DNA of 64,000 nt from Reclinomonas americana ATCC 50394 (GCA_048213135.1 PS015299.1:91987-155986), one strand, 5' to 3'. Positions 41,701 through 61,134 are shown, counted from the stretch's first letter. Made by a program: numbers and translations. Notes: generated by a model not told the origin, from the sequence alone.

Positions 41701-44602
41701 CAGCCGCGAATGCAGCGACAGTGTTGTGTGTGGCGCAAGTGTCGTTTAGTGGCCGAGATCTGTCGGGTGTGCGAGTGAGAGGTGCGGATTTGAGGGATGC
41801 GGTGATGCACCGGACGGTGTGGAGGGGTGCGGATTTGCGAGGGGTGAATGTGTGCATGGCATATGCGAGAGAGGCGGATTTCAGTGGAGCGGATGTGAAG
41901 GACGTGAAGTGGCCGAGGAAGCCGATGATGGGGCACACTGGAAAGGTGCTGTCCGTCGCGGTCACTCCCGATCGTCAGTACATTGTAAGTGGCAGTGAGG
42001 ACAGGACTGTACGGGTGTGGTCTGTGGCAAATGGTGAGGAGGTGCGTCGACTGGAAGGCCACATGAGACAGGTGTGTGCAGTGGCAGTGACACCCGATGG
42101 CCAGTACATTGTGAGTGGCAGTTGGGACGAGACTGTACGGGTGTGGTCGGTGGCAAGTGGCGAGGAGGTGCACCGACTGGAAGGCCACACGAATTGGGTC
42201 TCGGCAGTGGCAGTGACACCCGATGGCCAGCACATTGTGAGTGGCAGTTGGGACGAGACTGTACGGGTGTGGTCGCTGGCAAGTGGCAAGGAGGTGCGCC
42301 GACTTTCAGGCCACACGAGCGTGGTGTATGCAGTGGCAGTGACACCCGATGGCCAGCATATTGTGAGTGGCAGTCATGACAGGACTGTTCGGGTGTGGTC
42401 GGTGGCAAGTGGCGAGGAGGTGCGCCGACTGGAAGGTCACACGGGTGTGGTGCGTGCAGTGGCAGTGACACCCGATGGGCAGCACATTGTAAGTGGCAGC
42501 GCAGACGAGACTGTACGGGTGTGGTCGGTGGCAAGTGGCGAGGAGGTGCGCCGACTGGAAGGCCACACGGAGTCGGTGCGTGCAGTGGCAGTGACACCCG
42601 ATGGGCAGCACATTGTAAGTGGCAGCGCAGACGAGACTGTACGGGTGTGGTCGGTGGCAAGTGGCGAGGAGGTGCGCCGACTCAAACGCCACACATATAG
42701 GGTAATGAAAGTGACTGTGACACCCGATGGCCAGCACATTGTGAGTGGCAGTGCTGACAAGACTGTACGGGTGTGGTTGGTGGCAGGTGGCGAGGAGGTG
42801 CGCCGATTAGAAGCCCACACGAGGGCAGTGAATGCAGTGGCAGTGACAACTGATGGCCGGTTGATTGTGAGTGGCAGTTGGGACAAGACTGTACGGGTGT
42901 GGTCGCTGGCAAGTGGCAAGGAGGTGCGCCGACTGAGAGGCCACACAAGTGAGGTGTTTGCAGTGGCGGTGACAGCCGATGGCGAGCACATTGTGAGTGG
43001 CAGTGTTGACAAGACTGTACGGGTGTGGTCAGTGACAAGCGGCGAGGAGGTGCGCCGACTGGAAGGTCACATAGGTGAGGTGTGTGCAGTGGCAGTGACA
43101 CCCGATGGCCAACACATTGTGAGTGGCAGTGTGGACGAGACTGTACGGGTGTGGTCAGTGGCAAGTGGCGAGGAGGTGCGCCGGCTGGAAGGCCACACGC
43201 GTGATGTGTGTGCAGTGGCAGTGACACCCGATGGCCAGCACTTTGTGAGTGGCAGTGATGACAGTACTGTACGGGTGTGGTCAGTGGCAAGTGGCGAGGA
43301 GGTGCGCCGACTGGAAGGCCACACGGATGGGGTGCGTGCAGTGGCAGTGACACCGGATGGGTAGCACATTGTGAGTGGCAGTGTGGACGAGACTGTACGG
43401 GTGTGGTCGGTGGCAAGTGGCGGAGAGGTTCGCCGGCTGGAAGGTCACACGAATTGGGTGTTTGCGGTGGCAGTGACACCCGATGGTCAGCACATTGTGA
43501 GTGGCAGCGCAGACGAGACTGTGCGGATGTGGTCGGTGGCAAGTGGCGAGGAGGTGCGCCGACTGAAAGGCCACACGGATGCAGTGTCTCGAGTGGCAGT
43601 GACACCCGATGGCCAGCACATTGTGAGTGGCAGTGATGACAACACTGTACGGAGTGGTCAGTTGTGAGTGGCGAGGAGGTACGCCGACTGGAAGGCCACA
43701 CGAATTGGGTGTTTGCGGTGGCAGTGACACCCGATGGTCAGCACATTGTGAGTGGCAGCTATGACAAGACTGTGCGGGTATGGTCGGTGACAAGTGGCGA
43801 CGAGGTTCGCCGACTGGAAGGCCACACGGATGATGTGCTTGCAGTGGCAGTGACACCCGATGGTCAGCATGTTGTGAGTGGCAGTGTGGACAAAATTGTA
43901 CGGGTATGGTCACTGGCAAGTGGCGAAGAGGTGCGCCGACTGGAAGGCCACACAGGTGGGGTGAATTCTGTCGCCATCACTCCTGATGGCCAGCACATTG
44001 TGAGTGGCAGTTATGACATGATTGTACGGCTGTGGTTGATGGCAAATGGCGAGGAGGTGCGCCGACTGGAAGGCCACACGGATTGGGTACGGGCAGTGGC
44101 AGTGACACCCGATGGCCAGCACATTCTGAGTGGCAGTCAGGACATGACTGTACGGGTATGGTCTGTGGCAAGTGGCGAGGAGGTGCGCCGACTGGAGGGC
44201 CACACAGATTGGGTTTGGGCAGTGGCAGTGACACCCGATGGCCAGCACATTGTGAGTGGCAGTTTGGACATTGTACGGGTGTGGTCGGTGGCAAGTGGCG
44301 AGGAGGTGCGCCGATTGGAAGGCCACACGGATTGGGTGCGTGCAGTGGCTGTGACACCCGATAGCCAGCACATTGTGAGTGGCAGTGGTGACAAGACTGT
44401 ACGGGTGTGGTCGGTGGTAAGTGGCGAGGAGGTGTACCAACTGGAAGACCATGCGGAAGAGGTGTCTGCGTCGACAATGTCACCAGATGACCAGTACATT
44501 GTCTCGCATGGGAAGGATGCACCGCCTGTGCCTCGTCGTGAAGGACTGCTCGAGCGCGTTCTCGGCTCCTTCCTGCCTGATTTCACCGATTTAGTTCGGT
44601 GA
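38744..44602 (+). pseudogene. NLR-like copy 1: LRGG leader - ubiquitin-like - HEPN - NACHT - pentapeptide - ~21 WD40; in-frame TAG in repeat 12 and a -1 frameshift in repeat 14
   Basis: Exons 38744-38781, 38860-39100, 39182-39480 and 39653 onward. Motifs: RNKLRH (40074-40091), FGNSGAGKTT, LLLLLDGYDE, RDLSGVRVRGADLRDA, 42-aa GH...VRVW repeats. CAG>TAG at 43362-43364; 1-nt deletion at ~43653. It could still yield a protein with 11 repeats. Confidence 0.85.
41930..44510 (+). repeat. 126-bp coding tandem repeat array (WD40), 20 units plus 1 divergent terminal unit
   Basis: GTGACACCCGATGGCCAGCACATTGTGAGTGGCAGT...GACTGTACGGGTGTGGTCGGTGGCAAGTGGCGAGGAGGTGCGCCGACTGGAAGGCCAC recurs every 126 bp. Confidence 0.95.
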
Positions 44603-59800: not shown

Positions 59801-61134
59801 TGCGCCGACTGGAAGGCCACACGAGCGTGGTGTGTGCAGTGGCAGTGACTCCGGATGGCCAGCACATCGTGAGTGGCAGTGAGGACATGACTGTGCGGGT
59901 GTGGTCGGTAGCAAGTGGCGAGGAGGTGCGCCGACTAGAAGGCCATACGGGTTGGGTGAATGCAGTGGCTATGACTCCCGATGGCCAGCGCATTGTGAGT
60001 GGCAGTGATGACAAGACTGTACGGGTGTGGTCTGTGGCAAGTGGTGAGGAAGTGCGCCGACTGGAAGGGCACACGAGTTTGGTGTATGCAGTGGCGATGA
60101 CACGCGATGGTCAGCACATTGTGAGTGGCAGTGCAGACAAGACTGTACGGGTGTGGTCGGTGGCAGGTGGCGAGGAGGTGCGCCGACTGGAAGGCCACAC
60201 GTTGCCGGTGCAGGCAGTGGCAGTGACACCCGATGGCCAGCACATTGTGAGTGGCAGTGGGGACAAGACTGTGCGGGTGTGGTCGGTGGCAGGTGGCGAG
60301 GAGGTGCGCCGACTGGAAGGCCACACAGATAGGGTAATGGCAGTGGCCGTGACACCCGGTGGCCAGCACATTGTGAGTGGCAGTGCAGACGAGACTGTGC
60401 GGGTTTGGTCGGTGGCAAGTGGCGAGGAGGTGCGCCGACTGGAGGGACATACGGATGCAGTCTATGCAGTGGCAGTGAGACCAGATGGCCAGCACATTGT
60501 GAGTGGCAGTGCTGACAAGACTGTACGAGTGTGGTCGGTGGCAAGTGGCGAGGAGGTGCACCGACTGGAAGGCCACGCGCGTGTGGTGAATGCGGTTGCA
60601 ATGACACCCGATGGCCAGCACATTGTGAGTGGCAGTGCTGACATGACTGTACGGGTGTGGTCGGTGGCAAGTGGCGAGGAGGTGCGCCGACTGGAGGGCC
60701 ACACGACTGGGGTGTCTGCAGTGGCAGTGGCACCCGATGGCAAGCACATTGTGAGTGGTAGTGCTGACAAGACTGTGCGTGTGTGGTCGGTGGCAAGTGG
60801 CGAGGAGGTGCGCCGACTGGAGGGCCACACGACTGGGGTGTCTGCAGTGGCAGTGACACCCGATGGCAAGCGCGTTGTGAGTGGCAGTGCTGACAAGACT
60901 GTACGGGTGTGGTCGGTGACGAGTGGTGAGGAAGTGCGCCAACTGGAAGGCCACACGACTGGGGTGTCGGCAGTGGCAGTGGCACCCGATGGCAAGCACA
61001 TTGTGAGTGGCAGTGCTGACAAGACTGTGCGTGTGTGGTCGGTGGCAAGTGGCGAGGAGGTGCGCCGTCATGAAGGACTGCTCGAGCGCATTCTAGGCTC
61101 CTTCCTGCCTGATTTCACCGATTTAGTTCTGTGA
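56862..61134 (+). pseudogene. NLR-like copy 3: frameshifting deletion and stops early in the HEPN region; downstream 1159-codon HEPN-core/NACHT/pentapeptide/11xWD40 frame is open
   Basis: Exons 56862-56867, 56970-57268 and 57442 onward. A ~22-nt deletion after DVRAW gives TGA at 57578-57580; there is also a TAG at 57643-57645. RNEFAH at 57844-57861; ORF 57655-61134 is intact. Confidence 0.82.
59683..61070 (+). repeat. 126-bp WD40 repeat array of copy 3 (11 units; last three nearly identical)
   Basis: GHTTGVSAVAV(A/T)PDGK occurs three times at the array end. Confidence 0.95.

What the first reader, a model, noticed from the sequence alone, without database searches (positions are those of the whole stretch)
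41930..61070. WD40 sensor repeats are homogenised at DNA level but hypervariable at a few fixed positions, and differ in copy number
Seen: the 126-bp units are near-identical within and between paralogs, yet the residues in GH-x-[x-x]-V-[x] (GK.L, RQ.C, NW.S, SV.Y, ES.R, DW.R, MA.N, LP.Q, TG.S and others) and SGS-[x]-D-[x] (E.R, W.E, H.R, A.K, Y.S, G.Y, Q.M) change in almost every unit. Repeat counts are ~20+1, 7+partial and 11. Known: the same 42-aa unit, concerted evolution and diversification of propeller top-face residues characterise Podospora HET-D/HET-E NWD receptors. Inference: a repeat-shuffling receptor-diversification mechanism producing new binding specificities.
Basis: partly seen in the sequence, partly recalled or inferred. 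Interest (0 to 1): 0.85.

Follow-up and report, generated by a model that had tools for sequence, protein, structure and literature searches.

The report
Hypervariable WD40 repeats in NLR-like genes
Three tandem copies of an immune-receptor-like gene carry long runs of very similar 42-residue WD40 repeats whose few ligand-facing residues have been driven apart by selection, a pattern already known from fungal self/non-self receptors and seen here in a different, unidentified eukaryote.

Summary
There are three tandem paralogs with the layout orphan N-terminal domain, NACHT, pentapeptide repeats, WD40 array. They carry 20+1, 7+1 and 11 units of 126 bp. Five of 42 codon columns (16, 17, 19, 35, 37) hold 53% of the amino-acid entropy. 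Columns 16, 17, 19 and 35 have dN above neutral in a tree-free bootstrap and in an M1a/M2a test (LRT 83.7). Column 37 is only marginal. Columns 17, 19, 35 and 37 match the four selected Podospora NWD codons (7, 9, 25, 27). They lie in the D-A loop/start of strand A and the B-C turn, the top face of the propeller.

"Homogenised, near-identical" is overstated. Units are 83% identical, and at four-fold sites they are as diverged (0.23-0.24) as the gene copies themselves (0.24-0.27). I found no positional orthology, no long shared tracts between paralogs and no PHI signal. Ongoing shuffling is therefore not shown. Two of the three copies carry stops or frameshifts.

This is a new member of a known kind: highly repetitive WD40 NLRs.

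The parts
36085..62000 (+). Tandem segmental triplication. Copies lie at about 36085-45600, 45647-53800 and 53830-62000. Each holds about 3.5 kb of upstream non-coding DNA plus one NLR-like gene.
   Evidence: Self-BLAST of the window gives colinear hits of 1.6-4.2 kb at 81-86% identity between the three copies.
39678..44602 (+). Paralog 1. The reading frame is interrupted, so it is a probable pseudogene or carries sequence errors. Layout: N-terminal domain, NACHT (about 40443-40931), pentapeptide repeats (about 41739-41843), WD40 array.
   Evidence: ORFs 39513-43364 and 43640-44602 lie in different frames. NACHT scores 31.8 bits against a cut-off of 26.7, and Pentapeptide 28.1 bits against 20.2.
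41895..44518 (+). WD40 array of paralog 1: 20 units of 126 bp (41895-44410) plus one degenerate unit (44411-44518).
   Evidence: VSGS anchors are spaced 126 bp apart, with one spacing of 125 and one of 123. TRF score 3189.
43362..43364 (+). In-frame TAG stop in unit 12, column 28, where 33 of the other 37 units have Q (3 K and 1 E otherwise).
   Evidence: Three-frame translation, unit table and sequence check.
43653..43655 (+). 1-bp deletion in codon 41 of unit 14, which shifts the frame. It is not in a homopolymer run. A separate in-frame 3-bp deletion lies in unit 19, near 44270.
   Evidence: Anchor spacings of 125 and 123 bp and direct sequence comparison.
49312..52599 (+). Paralog 2, the only copy with an uninterrupted frame (1095 aa from ATG 49312). 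Layout: N-terminal domain, NACHT (about 50101-50448), pentapeptide repeats (about 51415-51525), WD40 array.
   Evidence: ORF 49189-52599. NACHT 33.6 bits and Pentapeptide 28.3 bits. ATG and TGA positions checked.
49723..49740 (+). R-N-x-x-x-H motif (R138, N139, H143 of paralog 2). It is invariant in the three paralogs and is the candidate HEPN catalytic motif.
   Evidence: Invariant columns in alignment A2. The only Pfam match of the N-terminal domain, HEPN_Swt1, covers this motif in 2 of 3 copies, below threshold. The top two Atlas leads are HEPN families at score 0.79.
51526..52515 (+). WD40 array of paralog 2: 7 units (51526-52407) plus one partial unit (52408-52515). It is modelled as an eight-bladed propeller.
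   Evidence: AlphaFold2 mean pLDDT 81.1 and pTM 0.80. The best superpositions are eight-bladed Tako8 (TM 0.92, rmsd 1.4) and ODA16.
57467..61134 (+). Paralog 3. Its 5' end is disrupted: a 22-bp deletion at about 57568 and a TAG stop at 57643-57645. An open frame runs from 57646 to 61134. Layout: NACHT (about 58213-58701), pentapeptide repeats (about 59497-59601), WD40 array.
   Evidence: Three-frame translation, DNA alignment of the three 5' ends and coordinates. NACHT 41.1 bits.
59653..61068 (+). WD40 array of paralog 3: 11 units (59653-61038) plus a 10-codon stub (61039-61068) fused directly to the conserved C-terminal tail. The degenerate last unit present in paralogs 1 and 2 is missing.
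   Evidence: TRF 11.0 copies, score 2000.

Best explanation
The region holds a tandem cluster of three NLR-like STAND NTPase genes. Each has an orphan N-terminal domain, a NACHT NTPase, a short pentapeptide-repeat linker and a highly repetitive WD40 sensor.

Shown:
- Domain order.
- The 42-residue repeat.
- An excess of amino-acid change over neutral change at four fixed columns (16, 17, 19, 35). These map to the D-A loop/start of strand A and to the B-C turn, the ligand-binding top face of a WD40 propeller.
- Different unit numbers in the three copies.
- One recent adjacent unit duplication.

Inferred by analogy with other NLRs: the propeller(s) bind a protein ligand through the variable surface. 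Binding releases the NACHT switch, the protein oligomerises, and this activates the N-terminal effector. My best guess for the effector is a HEPN-type RNase, which would cause cell death or dormancy.

The arrays most likely arose by amplification of one unit through unequal recombination, at about the time of the gene triplication. The ligand-facing codons were then driven apart by diversifying selection while the scaffold stayed under purifying selection. Unit gain and loss happened later. Continuing exchange between paralogs is possible but is not shown by this window.
For: Architecture:
- Pfam NACHT scores above the cut-off in 3 of 3 copies, and Pentapeptide also in 3 of 3. WD40 gives 11, 7 and 11 stretches.
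- The P-loop GNSGAGKTT and the LLLLLDGYDE box are visible in all three translations.
- Relatives over the NACHT-to-pentapeptide stretch carry the same NACHT-pentapeptide-WD40 layout. They are at about 27-32% identity, for example BLASTP E 1e-58 to P0001.

Selection:
- Pooled Nei-Gojobori dN/dS is 1.96 at the five variable columns against 0.22 elsewhere.
- Tree-free bootstrap over units: pN is 0.58-0.66 at columns 16, 17, 19 and 35, against a four-fold-site divergence of 0.237. The 95% intervals of the difference exclude 0 for all 38 units, for the 18 units of copies 2+3, and for the 20 units of copy 1.
- M1a against M2a: LRT 83.7 (p 7e-19) on a tree built from all sites, and 293.9 on a tree built without the variable codons. 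omega2 is 4.7 and 14.5. Posterior exceeds 0.99 at columns 16, 17, 19 and 35.

Location:
- In the model (pLDDT above 95 in the core), strand A spans columns 18-23, strand B 29-34, strand C 38-42 and strand D 6-12. Columns 16 and 17 therefore end the D-A loop, column 19 is in the first turn of strand A, and columns 35 and 37 flank D36 in the B-C turn. The A-B and C-D loops are conserved.
- Columns 17, 19 and 35 fit the R1-2, R1 and D-1 top-face hotspots of Wu et al. 2012 (PMC3419727, passages read).
- The Podospora pairs (7, 9) and (25, 27) are described in the same two loops on the top face (PMC1805685, section 10 read).

Unit turnover:
- Unit counts are 20+1, 7+1 and 11.
- Units g1_u05 and g1_u06 are 110/111 identical outside the variable codons (Bonferroni p 0.03).
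- Paralog 3 lacks the terminal degenerate unit.

Effector:
- R-N-x3-H is invariant.
- HEPN_Swt1 is the only Pfam match to the N-terminal domain, at E 0.011 and 0.08, and it lies over that motif.
- The top two Atlas leads are both HEPN families.
Against: - Two of three copies carry disabling lesions: a TAG stop and a 1-bp deletion in copy 1, and a 22-bp deletion and a TAG stop in copy 3. The cluster may be largely decaying, or the assembly may contain errors.
- Column 37 is not assigned to the omega>1 class (posterior below 0.01). It exceeds neutral only marginally, and not at all in copies 2+3 alone.
- The codon-model LRT assumes one tree, and recombination between repeats can inflate it. For that reason I rely mainly on the tree-free test.
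- The effector assignment is weak. The profile found 0 relatives among 1.84 billion representatives. The AlphaFold2 model has pLDDT 39.5. The HEPN matches are below threshold and absent in copy 2. Atlas scores of 0.79 are leads only.
- There are no expression, polymorphism or ligand data.
- Face mapping was done from strand topology plus published descriptions, not from 3D coordinates, which the tools do not return.
Confidence: 0.7

Rival explanations
1. One reading: an active Podospora-like system. Units are continually shuffled and exchanged within and between the paralogs (concerted evolution). This keeps the scaffold homogenised and creates new specificities.
For: - No positional orthology between arrays: no diagonal exceeds the background identity of 0.89-0.90.
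- Units of the three genes are interspersed in the tree.
- Nei-Gojobori dS between units (0.29, bootstrap 0.22-0.35) is lower than that of the non-repeat coding part (0.45-0.53).
- Unit numbers differ.
- One recent adjacent duplication.
- The same (16, 17, 19) triplet occurs with different (35, 37) pairs. For example, DW.R is paired with Q.M, G.K, W.K and D.K.
- In Podospora the same pattern goes with proven instability (PMC2873952 abstract; PMC1805685 section 8).
Against: - The dS contrast disappears at four-fold sites: units 0.233/0.240 against the flanking coding part 0.24-0.27.
- Windows of the non-repeat part range from 0.17 to 1.23 in dS.
- Within-gene divergence equals between-gene divergence. 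Frequent exchange, which in Podospora is mostly intragenic, should make units within a gene more alike.
- The longest exact tract shared between paralogs is 62 bp.
- PHI is not significant, p 0.31-0.99.
- Only 1 of 703 pairs is an outlier.
Confidence: 0.3
2. There is no adaptive diversification. The five columns are simply unconstrained surface positions in decaying gene copies, and their variability is neutral drift.
For: - Two of three copies carry stops or frameshifts.
- Column 37 behaves as roughly neutral.
Against: - Neutral drift caps dN at the neutral rate. pN at columns 16, 17, 19 and 35 is 0.58-0.66 against 0.24 at four-fold and synonymous sites, and the bootstrap intervals exclude equality in all three subsets.
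- M1a already includes a neutral class, and M2a still beats it.
- The scaffold is under purifying selection, with dN/dS 0.22. This holds also in copy 1, where the highest pN among the 37 other columns is 0.28 against 0.55-0.66 at columns 16, 17, 19 and 35.
Confidence: 0.07
3. Assembly artefact: unit numbers, unit order and the frame-breaking lesions come from mis-assembly of a repetitive region in a draft genome.
For: - The window is a draft with 7 N-gaps.
- PMC12222747 (passages read) reports that highly conserved 126-bp WD40 repeats are not recovered reliably from Illumina assemblies, and that a single-base deletion there was a mis-assembly.
Against: - No gap lies inside an array.
- Units differ at about 17% of positions, and exact repeats longer than 108 bp do not occur. 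Unique k-mers are therefore plentiful.
- The 1-bp deletion is not in a homopolymer.
- The 22-bp deletion and the two TAG stops are not typical assembly errors.
- The per-column selection signal does not depend on unit order or number.
Confidence: 0.15
4. The proteins are not receptors of an immune or non-self system. They are regulatory STAND/WD40 scaffolds with an unrelated cellular role, and the variable positions tune different endogenous partners.
For: - There are no functional data.
- The N-terminal domain is an orphan.
- WD40 propellers serve many roles.
Against: - Fast paralog turnover, tandem clustering, pseudogenes and diversifying selection on the binding face are hallmarks of conflict genes.
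- The N-terminal domain is the fastest-evolving part (dN 0.26-0.41 in the first 200 codons, against 0.02-0.13 elsewhere).
- The closest documented parallels are immune or allorecognition NLRs.
Confidence: 0.1

Closest known systems
Podospora anserina NWD/HNWD genes (het-e, het-d, het-r). Read: PMC1805685 sections 8 and 10 in full, plus passages including one from section 9; PMC2873952 abstract; PMC12222747 passages.
   Same: - NACHT plus a C-terminal array of 42-residue (126-bp) WD40 units with high internal conservation.
- Positive selection at codon pairs that flank a conserved V and a conserved D. Their codons 7, 9, 25 and 27 correspond to columns 17, 19, 35 and 37 here.
- The selected positions lie in the D-A loop and the B-C turn on the top face.
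- Unit numbers vary between family members (2-15 there, 8-21 here).
- Pseudogene members with stop codons occur in the family.
   Different: - No HET domain; the N-terminal domain here is an orphan with HEPN-like cues.
- A pentapeptide-repeat linker lies between NACHT and WD40.
- The closest sequence relatives are not Podospora-type proteins.
- Column 16 is selected here, while column 37 is weak.
- Concerted evolution between paralogs and repeat-number polymorphism, both demonstrated in Podospora, are not shown here.
- The organism is probably not a dikaryan fungus and remains unidentified.
NACHT-PPR-WD40 NOD-like receptors of Mortierellomycota and of the endosymbiont Mycoavidus cysteinexigens (PMC11291939, passages read).
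   Same: - Same domain order: NACHT, pentapeptide repeats, WD40.
- These are the best sequence matches over NACHT-to-pentapeptide, at 27-32% identity and E down to 1.9e-48.
- 10 of the 18 retrieved proteins had at least four 42-residue units that I could parse, with mean unit identity 0.36-0.84. Column 35 is among the six most variable columns in 10 of these 10, and columns 17 and 19 in 8 of 10 each.
   Different: - Only about 30% identity.
- The N-terminal domains are unrelated: the alignments start after residue 137 of the query.
- The host lineage differs.
Highly-repetitive WD40 proteins of prokaryotes, protists and fungi (PMC5587647, passages read). A solved example is PDB 2YMU.
   Same: - Internal identity is above their 0.7 cut-off (0.79 here).
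- They report conserved scaffolds with high diversity at the predicted hotspot sites.
- 2YMU is the best PDB sequence match, E 3.8e-169.
   Different: That study is a survey without the NLR context. Here the repeats sit in a tandem NLR-like paralog cluster, with explicit tests showing dN above neutral.
HEPN-domain effectors fused to STAND/NACHT NTPases in conflict systems (PMC8195603 and PMC7159879, seen only in a search listing).
   Same: A candidate R-N-x3-H motif in a helical N-terminal domain placed before a NACHT module.
   Different: Membership in HEPN is not established here: the profile matches are sub-threshold, there is no confident fold and no relatives were found.

Membership tests
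NACHT-type STAND NTPase / NLR architecture | NACHT domain scoring above the curated profile cut-off | tested here: met
   PF05729 scores 31.8, 33.6 and 41.1 bits against a cut-off of 26.7, in 3 of 3 copies.
NACHT-type STAND NTPase / NLR architecture | Walker A P-loop and Walker B acidic box (motif definitions recalled, not from a call) | tested here: met
   GNSGAGKTT and LLLLLDGYDE are present in all three translations.
NACHT-type STAND NTPase / NLR architecture | Tripartite order: N-terminal effector, NOD, C-terminal repeat sensor | tested here: met
   The N-terminal domain is about 250 aa, followed by NACHT and a WD40 array. The effector's identity remains open.
Podospora-type highly conserved WD40 NLR (NWD/HNWD-like behaviour) | 42-residue WD40 units with high internal conservation (Dyrka et al. 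2014 criterion: over 85% identity over at least 100 aa) | tested here: inconclusive
   Identity is 0.79 pairwise, 0.86 to the consensus and 0.88 outside the variable columns. This is borderline against the 85% criterion (PMC4986451 passages). It is above the 0.7 cut-off of PMC5587647.
Podospora-type highly conserved WD40 NLR (NWD/HNWD-like behaviour) | Positive selection at fixed codons on the propeller top face | tested here: met
   Columns 16, 17, 19 and 35 are supported. Topology comes from the model and from the literature. Column 37 is not supported.
Podospora-type highly conserved WD40 NLR (NWD/HNWD-like behaviour) | Concerted evolution: exchange of units within and between paralogs | tested here: inconclusive
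   There is no positional orthology and the units are interspersed. However, four-fold divergence equals that of the flanks, no long shared tracts exist and PHI is not significant.
Podospora-type highly conserved WD40 NLR (NWD/HNWD-like behaviour) | Repeat-number polymorphism between individuals | not testable with these tools
   Only one haplotype is available.
HNWD subfamily (HET-E/D/R) | N-terminal HET domain | tested here: not met
   No HET match at E up to 10. The only match is sub-threshold HEPN_Swt1.
NACHT-PPR-WD40 NLRs (Mortierellomycota / Mycoavidus type) | Pentapeptide repeats between NACHT and WD40, with sequence similarity across NACHT-to-PPR | tested here: met
   PF00805 scores 25.7-28.3 bits against a cut-off of 20.2. 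BLASTP to P0001 gives 32% identity over 666 columns, E 1e-58, running through the pentapeptide region.
HEPN domain superfamily | Rx4-6H catalytic motif (definition recalled, not from a call) | tested here: met
   R138-N-x3-H143 is invariant in the three paralogs.
HEPN domain superfamily | Significant profile or fold match to a HEPN family | tested here: not met
   HEPN_Swt1 scores E 0.011 and 0.08 (16.5 and 13.7 bits against a cut-off of 27.5) in 2 of 3 copies, with no match in copy 2. The model has pLDDT 39.5. The Atlas score is 0.79, which is a lead only. The profile search found 0 hits.

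The most novel reading that the evidence does not exclude
A eukaryote outside the Dikarya runs a Podospora-like receptor-diversification system. A neighbouring CLASP exon is closest to a red alga, which is only a weak hint on the taxon. The system would be built on an intron-less, possibly horizontally acquired NACHT-pentapeptide-WD40 chassis, fused to a lineage-specific, previously unseen HEPN-like RNase effector. 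The tandem cluster, with its pseudogene copies, would serve as a reservoir of repeat units for new specificities. This would extend repeat-based NLR diversification, and perhaps allorecognition, to a new branch of eukaryotes with a new executioner domain.
Probability: 0.25. Interest if true: 0.65.

Novelty: new member of a known kind. Interest (0 to 1): 0.4.

Why it matters
The window gives a clean, quantified example of a known pattern: diversifying selection on the same top-face WD40 positions as in fungal allorecognition NLRs. Here it occurs in a gene family that is only about 30% identical to any known NLR, and in an unidentified, probably non-dikaryan eukaryote. That supports the view that highly repetitive WD40 sensors with hypervariable hotspots are a general, recurrent way to build variable intracellular receptors. 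The orphan N-terminal domain is a candidate new effector module. The general phenomenon is already in print for Podospora, for fungal NLRs at large, and for highly repetitive WD40 proteins of prokaryotes, protists and fungi. The find therefore adds taxonomic and architectural breadth rather than a new principle. My searches found no paper describing this pattern in red algal or similar NB-WD40 families, although one paper counts 58 NB-WD40 genes in Chondrus crispus (PMC7145615, passages read).

Tried and rejected
1. Nei-Gojobori dS suggested the units (0.29) are younger than the paralogs (0.45-0.53). I dropped this as evidence of homogenisation once four-fold sites gave equal values.
2. Positional-orthology test along array diagonals: no diagonal stands out.
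3. PHI test for recombination inside units: p 0.99, 0.82 and 0.31 for windows of 5, 10 and 15 sites.
4. Search for long identical tracts as a sign of recent conversion. Between paralogs the longest is 62 bp. Within genes the longest are 108 bp (copy 1) and 75 bp (copy 3).
5. N-terminal domain: a profile search of 1.84 billion representatives gave 0 hits. AlphaFold2 gave pLDDT 39.5, too poor for a fold search, so none was run on it. Pfam at E up to 10 gave only sub-threshold HEPN_Swt1.
6. Taxon: Pfam scans covered 18 and then 94 ORFs outside the NLR genes. In the second scan I sent 94 of the 277 ORFs that passed my filter of 60 aa or more and a complexity cut-off. Only CLASP_N and a weak homeodomain match were found. 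One CLASP exon matched 4 proteins, the best from the red alga Rhodosorus marinus at 56% identity. That is too weak to name the organism.
7. A RIP-like or DGR-like targeted mutation process was considered but not tested beyond noting kappa of about 2.4 and G+C of 56-60% in windows spanning the genes.
8. Not run: complex prediction (no partner to test), the genome-contig scan, the third protein search and the second Atlas call.
9. Closed or unavailable: metagenome contigs, viral contigs and paper supplements. Supplementary tables of PMC4986451, PMC5587647 and PMC7145615 may list related proteins.

Full report
**What is there.** The window looks like draft eukaryotic DNA. It has seven N-gaps and dozens of microsatellites and minisatellites. 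It also holds split CLASP_N exons and a homeodomain exon. Self-BLAST shows a tandem triplication of about 8-9.6 kb, with copies near 36085-45600, 45647-53800 and 53830-62000. The copies are 81-86% identical outside the arrays. Each copy holds one long intron-less gene on the + strand. Pfam gives NACHT above its cut-off in 3 of 3 copies (31.8, 33.6 and 41.1 bits against 26.7). Pentapeptide repeats follow (25.7-28.3 bits against 20.2), and then WD40. A P-loop (GNSGAGKTT) and an acidic box (LLLLLDGYDE) are visible in all three translations. The roughly 250 residues before NACHT match nothing at significance.

**The arrays.** TRF finds three period-126 arrays with 20.2, 7.3 and 11.0 copies and 83-86% matches. 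I anchored on the VSGS codons to define 38 in-frame units. There are 20 in copy 1 (plus a degenerate 21st), 7 in copy 2 (plus a partial 8th) and 11 in copy 3 (plus a 10-codon stub fused to the C-terminal tail). No N-gap lies inside an array. The consensus unit is [42 protein letters not shown].

**Lesions.**
- Copy 1 has an in-frame TAG (43362-43364) in unit 12, a 1-bp deletion in codon 41 of unit 14, and an in-frame 3-bp deletion in unit 19.
- Copy 3 has a 22-bp deletion at about 57568 and a TAG at 57643-57645 near its 5' end.
- Only copy 2 (49312-52599) is intact.

**Variable columns.** Entropy is 3.06, 3.24, 3.25, 3.05 and 2.18 bits at columns 16, 17, 19, 35 and 37. It is at most 1.01 bits at the other 37 columns. 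The five columns hold 53% of all entropy. There are 32 distinct (16, 17, 19) triplets, 23 distinct (35, 37) pairs and 36 distinct five-residue combinations among the 38 units.

**Selection.**
- Pooled Nei-Gojobori estimates give dN/dS of 1.96 at the five columns and 0.22 elsewhere.
- Repeats can recombine, so I relied mainly on a tree-free test that bootstraps over units. pN is 0.61, 0.58, 0.66 and 0.62 at columns 16, 17, 19 and 35. The four-fold-site divergence is 0.237 and pS is 0.240. The 95% intervals of the difference exclude zero for all 38 units, for the 18 units of copies 2+3, and for the 20 units of copy 1.
- Column 37 (pN 0.38) is marginal, and it is not significant in copies 2+3 alone. 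No other column exceeds 0.155 in the full set.
- I also ran my own GY94/F3x4 implementation on fixed iqtree2 topologies. M2a beats M1a with LRT 83.7 (tree from all sites) and 293.9 (tree built without the variable codons). omega2 is 4.7 and 14.5, with about 10% of sites in that class. Posterior exceeds 0.99 at columns 16, 17, 19 and 35 only.

**Face of the propeller.**
- AlphaFold2 models the copy 2 WD region with mean pLDDT 81.1 and pTM 0.80, and block means of 93-98 through the core.
- The model superposes best on eight-bladed propellers: Tako8 with TM 0.92 and rmsd 1.4 A, and ODA16 with TM 0.82.
- From the DSSP strands, A spans columns 18-23, B 29-34, C 38-42 and D 6-12. Columns 16 and 17 therefore close the D-A loop, column 19 is the second residue of strand A, and columns 35 and 37 flank D36 in the B-C turn. 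The A-B loop (TPDGQ) and the C-D loop (SVASG) are conserved.
- Wu et al. 2012 define the top-face hotspots as R1-2, R1 (at the start of strand a, enclosed by two bulky residues) and D-1 (before the tetrad Asp). These fit columns 17, 19 and 35 (PMC3419727, passages read).
- Paoletti et al. 2007 place their selected pairs in the same two loops, on top of the propeller (PMC1805685, section 10 read).
- I could not compute a 3D clustering statistic because the tools do not return coordinates.

**Comparison with Podospora.** Paoletti et al. report 4 codons (7, 9, 25, 27) under strong positive selection. They occur in pairs around purified codons 8 and 26 (passage from section 9). With a constant offset of 10 these are columns 17, 19, 35 and 37, around V18 and D36. 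Repeat numbers in that family range from 2 to 15 and vary between isolates (section 8).

- Units are 0.83-0.86 identical at the nucleotide level (0.88-0.91 without the variable codons). Values within and between genes are the same.
- Nei-Gojobori dS between units (0.29) is lower than between the non-repeat parts of the paralogs (0.45-0.53). At four-fold sites, however, the two are equal: 0.233 and 0.240 for units against 0.24-0.27 for the flanks.
- The unit tree is star-like with mostly low support.
- No array diagonal is elevated.
- The longest exact tract shared by different paralogs is 62 bp.
- PHI is not significant.
- Only 1 of 703 unit pairs, the adjacent g1_u05 and g1_u06 at 110/111 identity, is an outlier.

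The simplest history is a burst of amplification or homogenisation near the time of the gene triplication. Independent divergence followed, with selection on the hotspot codons, plus some later unit gain and loss. Continuing exchange is neither shown nor excluded.

**An odd detail.** Units g1_u05 and g1_u06 are identical at columns 19, 35 and 37 and differ at 1 of 111 scaffold positions. Yet they differ at 4 of the 6 nucleotides of codons 16-17, and no other unit in the window could have donated that patch.

**Relatives.**
- Over the N-terminus-to-pentapeptide region (740 aa), 18 proteins matched at E of 0.001 or better. The best are at 27-32% identity. The named ones come from Mortierellaceae fungi, the endosymbiont Mycoavidus cysteinexigens and a Nitrospirota bacterium. 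Most carry NACHT, pentapeptide and WD40 Pfam domains.
- The alignments start after residue 137 of the query, so the N-terminal domains are unrelated.
- Ciach et al. 2024 describe this NACHT-PPR-WD40 architecture in Mortierellomycota as acquired from Mycoavidus (PMC11291939, passages read).
- 10 of the 18 proteins had at least four 42-residue units that I could parse. Column 35 was among the six most variable columns in 10 of 10, columns 17 and 19 in 8 of 10 each, column 16 in 6 of 10 and column 37 in 3 of 10.
- Hu et al. 2017 report that highly repetitive WD40 proteins of prokaryotes, protists and fungi are conserved except at predicted hotspot sites (PMC5587647, passages read). Dyrka et al. 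2014 show that highly conserved repeats are enriched in fungal NLRs (PMC4986451, passages read). The phenomenon as such is known.

**The N-terminal domain.**
- A three-sequence profile found 0 proteins among 1.84 billion representatives.
- AlphaFold2 gave pLDDT 39.5, mostly helices.
- An R-N-x3-H motif is invariant in the three paralogs.
- The only Pfam match at E up to 10 is HEPN_Swt1 over that motif, in 2 of 3 copies (E 0.011 and 0.08, below the cut-off; none in copy 2).
- The top two language-model neighbours are HEPN_DZIP3 and HEPN_Swt1 clusters at 0.79, a score the tool rates as a lead only.
- I therefore propose, at roughly even odds, a HEPN-type RNase effector.
- This domain is also the fastest-evolving part of the gene. 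dN is 0.26-0.41 in the first 200 codons, against 0.02-0.13 elsewhere.

**Mechanism.**
- Shown: architecture, repeat structure, the selection pattern and its location, copy-number differences, and lesions in two copies.
- Inferred from what is established for NLR/STAND proteins: ligand capture on the variable top face, nucleotide-dependent oligomerisation through NACHT, and proximity activation of the N-terminal effector.

**Organism.** One CLASP exon is closest to a protein of the red alga Rhodosorus marinus, at 56% identity over 65% of 103 residues, with only 4 hits in total. That is a hint and no more. Andolfo et al. 2019 count 58 NB-WD40 genes in the red alga Chondrus crispus (PMC7145615, passages read). 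My searches found no paper describing hypervariable, highly conserved WD40 units in such algal genes.

**Caveat on assembly.** PMC12222747 (passages read) shows that 126-bp WD40 repeats with high internal conservation are not reliably recovered from short-read assemblies. The units here are more diverged (17%), which helps. Even so, unit counts, unit order and the 1-bp deletion need long-read confirmation.

**Verdict.** This is a real, statistically supported feature. The claim of active DNA-level homogenisation and shuffling is not supported by this window.

Noticed in passing
window 42399-42650 (units g1_u05 and g1_u06): These adjacent units are 110/111 identical outside the variable codons and identical at columns 19, 35 and 37. 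Yet 4 of the 6 nucleotides of codons 16-17 differ, and no donor patch exists elsewhere in the window. This could be very fast selected change, a multi-nucleotide mutation, or conversion from a copy outside the window.
   Followed up: partly
window 39678-40427, 49312-50085, 57646-58200: The N-terminal domain of about 250 aa has no detectable relative in 1.84 billion representative proteins. It carries an invariant R-N-x3-H motif and weak HEPN cues. It is the fastest-evolving part of the genes.
   Followed up: partly
window 44519-44599, 52516-52596, 61069-61131: A conserved C-terminal tail of about 20 residues (…EGLLER.LGSF.PDFTDLV.) follows the arrays in all three paralogs. It has low model confidence and no known function. 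In copy 3 the array is fused to it after a 10-codon stub, and the degenerate last unit is lost.
   Followed up: no
window 2374-2934 and 3647-4192 (+), probably more exons between 1000 and 9300: A split CLASP-like gene (CLASP_N, E 4e-10 and 7e-8). One exon is closest to a red-algal protein (Rhodosorus marinus, 56% identity). The neighbouring NLR-like genes have no introns, which fits acquisition by transfer or a young gene family.
   Followed up: partly
window 18680-19540 (-): An ORF with a partial homeodomain match (positions 6-41 of 57, E 2e-4). It probably ends at an intron.
   Followed up: no
window 21308-21776, 31864-32454, 14449-14578, 9297-9479: Minisatellites with units of 95, 48, 18 and 17 bp. 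The 18-bp array shows 98% matches over 7.2 copies. Many (GA)n, (TC)n and (TG)n microsatellites lie across the window.
   Followed up: no
whole window: G exceeds C on the + strand in 31 of 32 2-kb windows, and the cumulative GC skew rises almost monotonically from 0.11 to 5.03. Purine-rich low-complexity DNA and the + strand genes may contribute, but I did not test the cause.
   Followed up: no
window 45647-49411 and 53830-57566; 36085-37697: About 3.5 kb of non-coding DNA upstream of each NLR-like gene is retained at 81-84% identity between the copies. No Pfam-recognisable ORF was found among the four I scanned from the 44.7-57.3 kb inter-gene stretches and the 3' flank of copy 3.
   Followed up: partly
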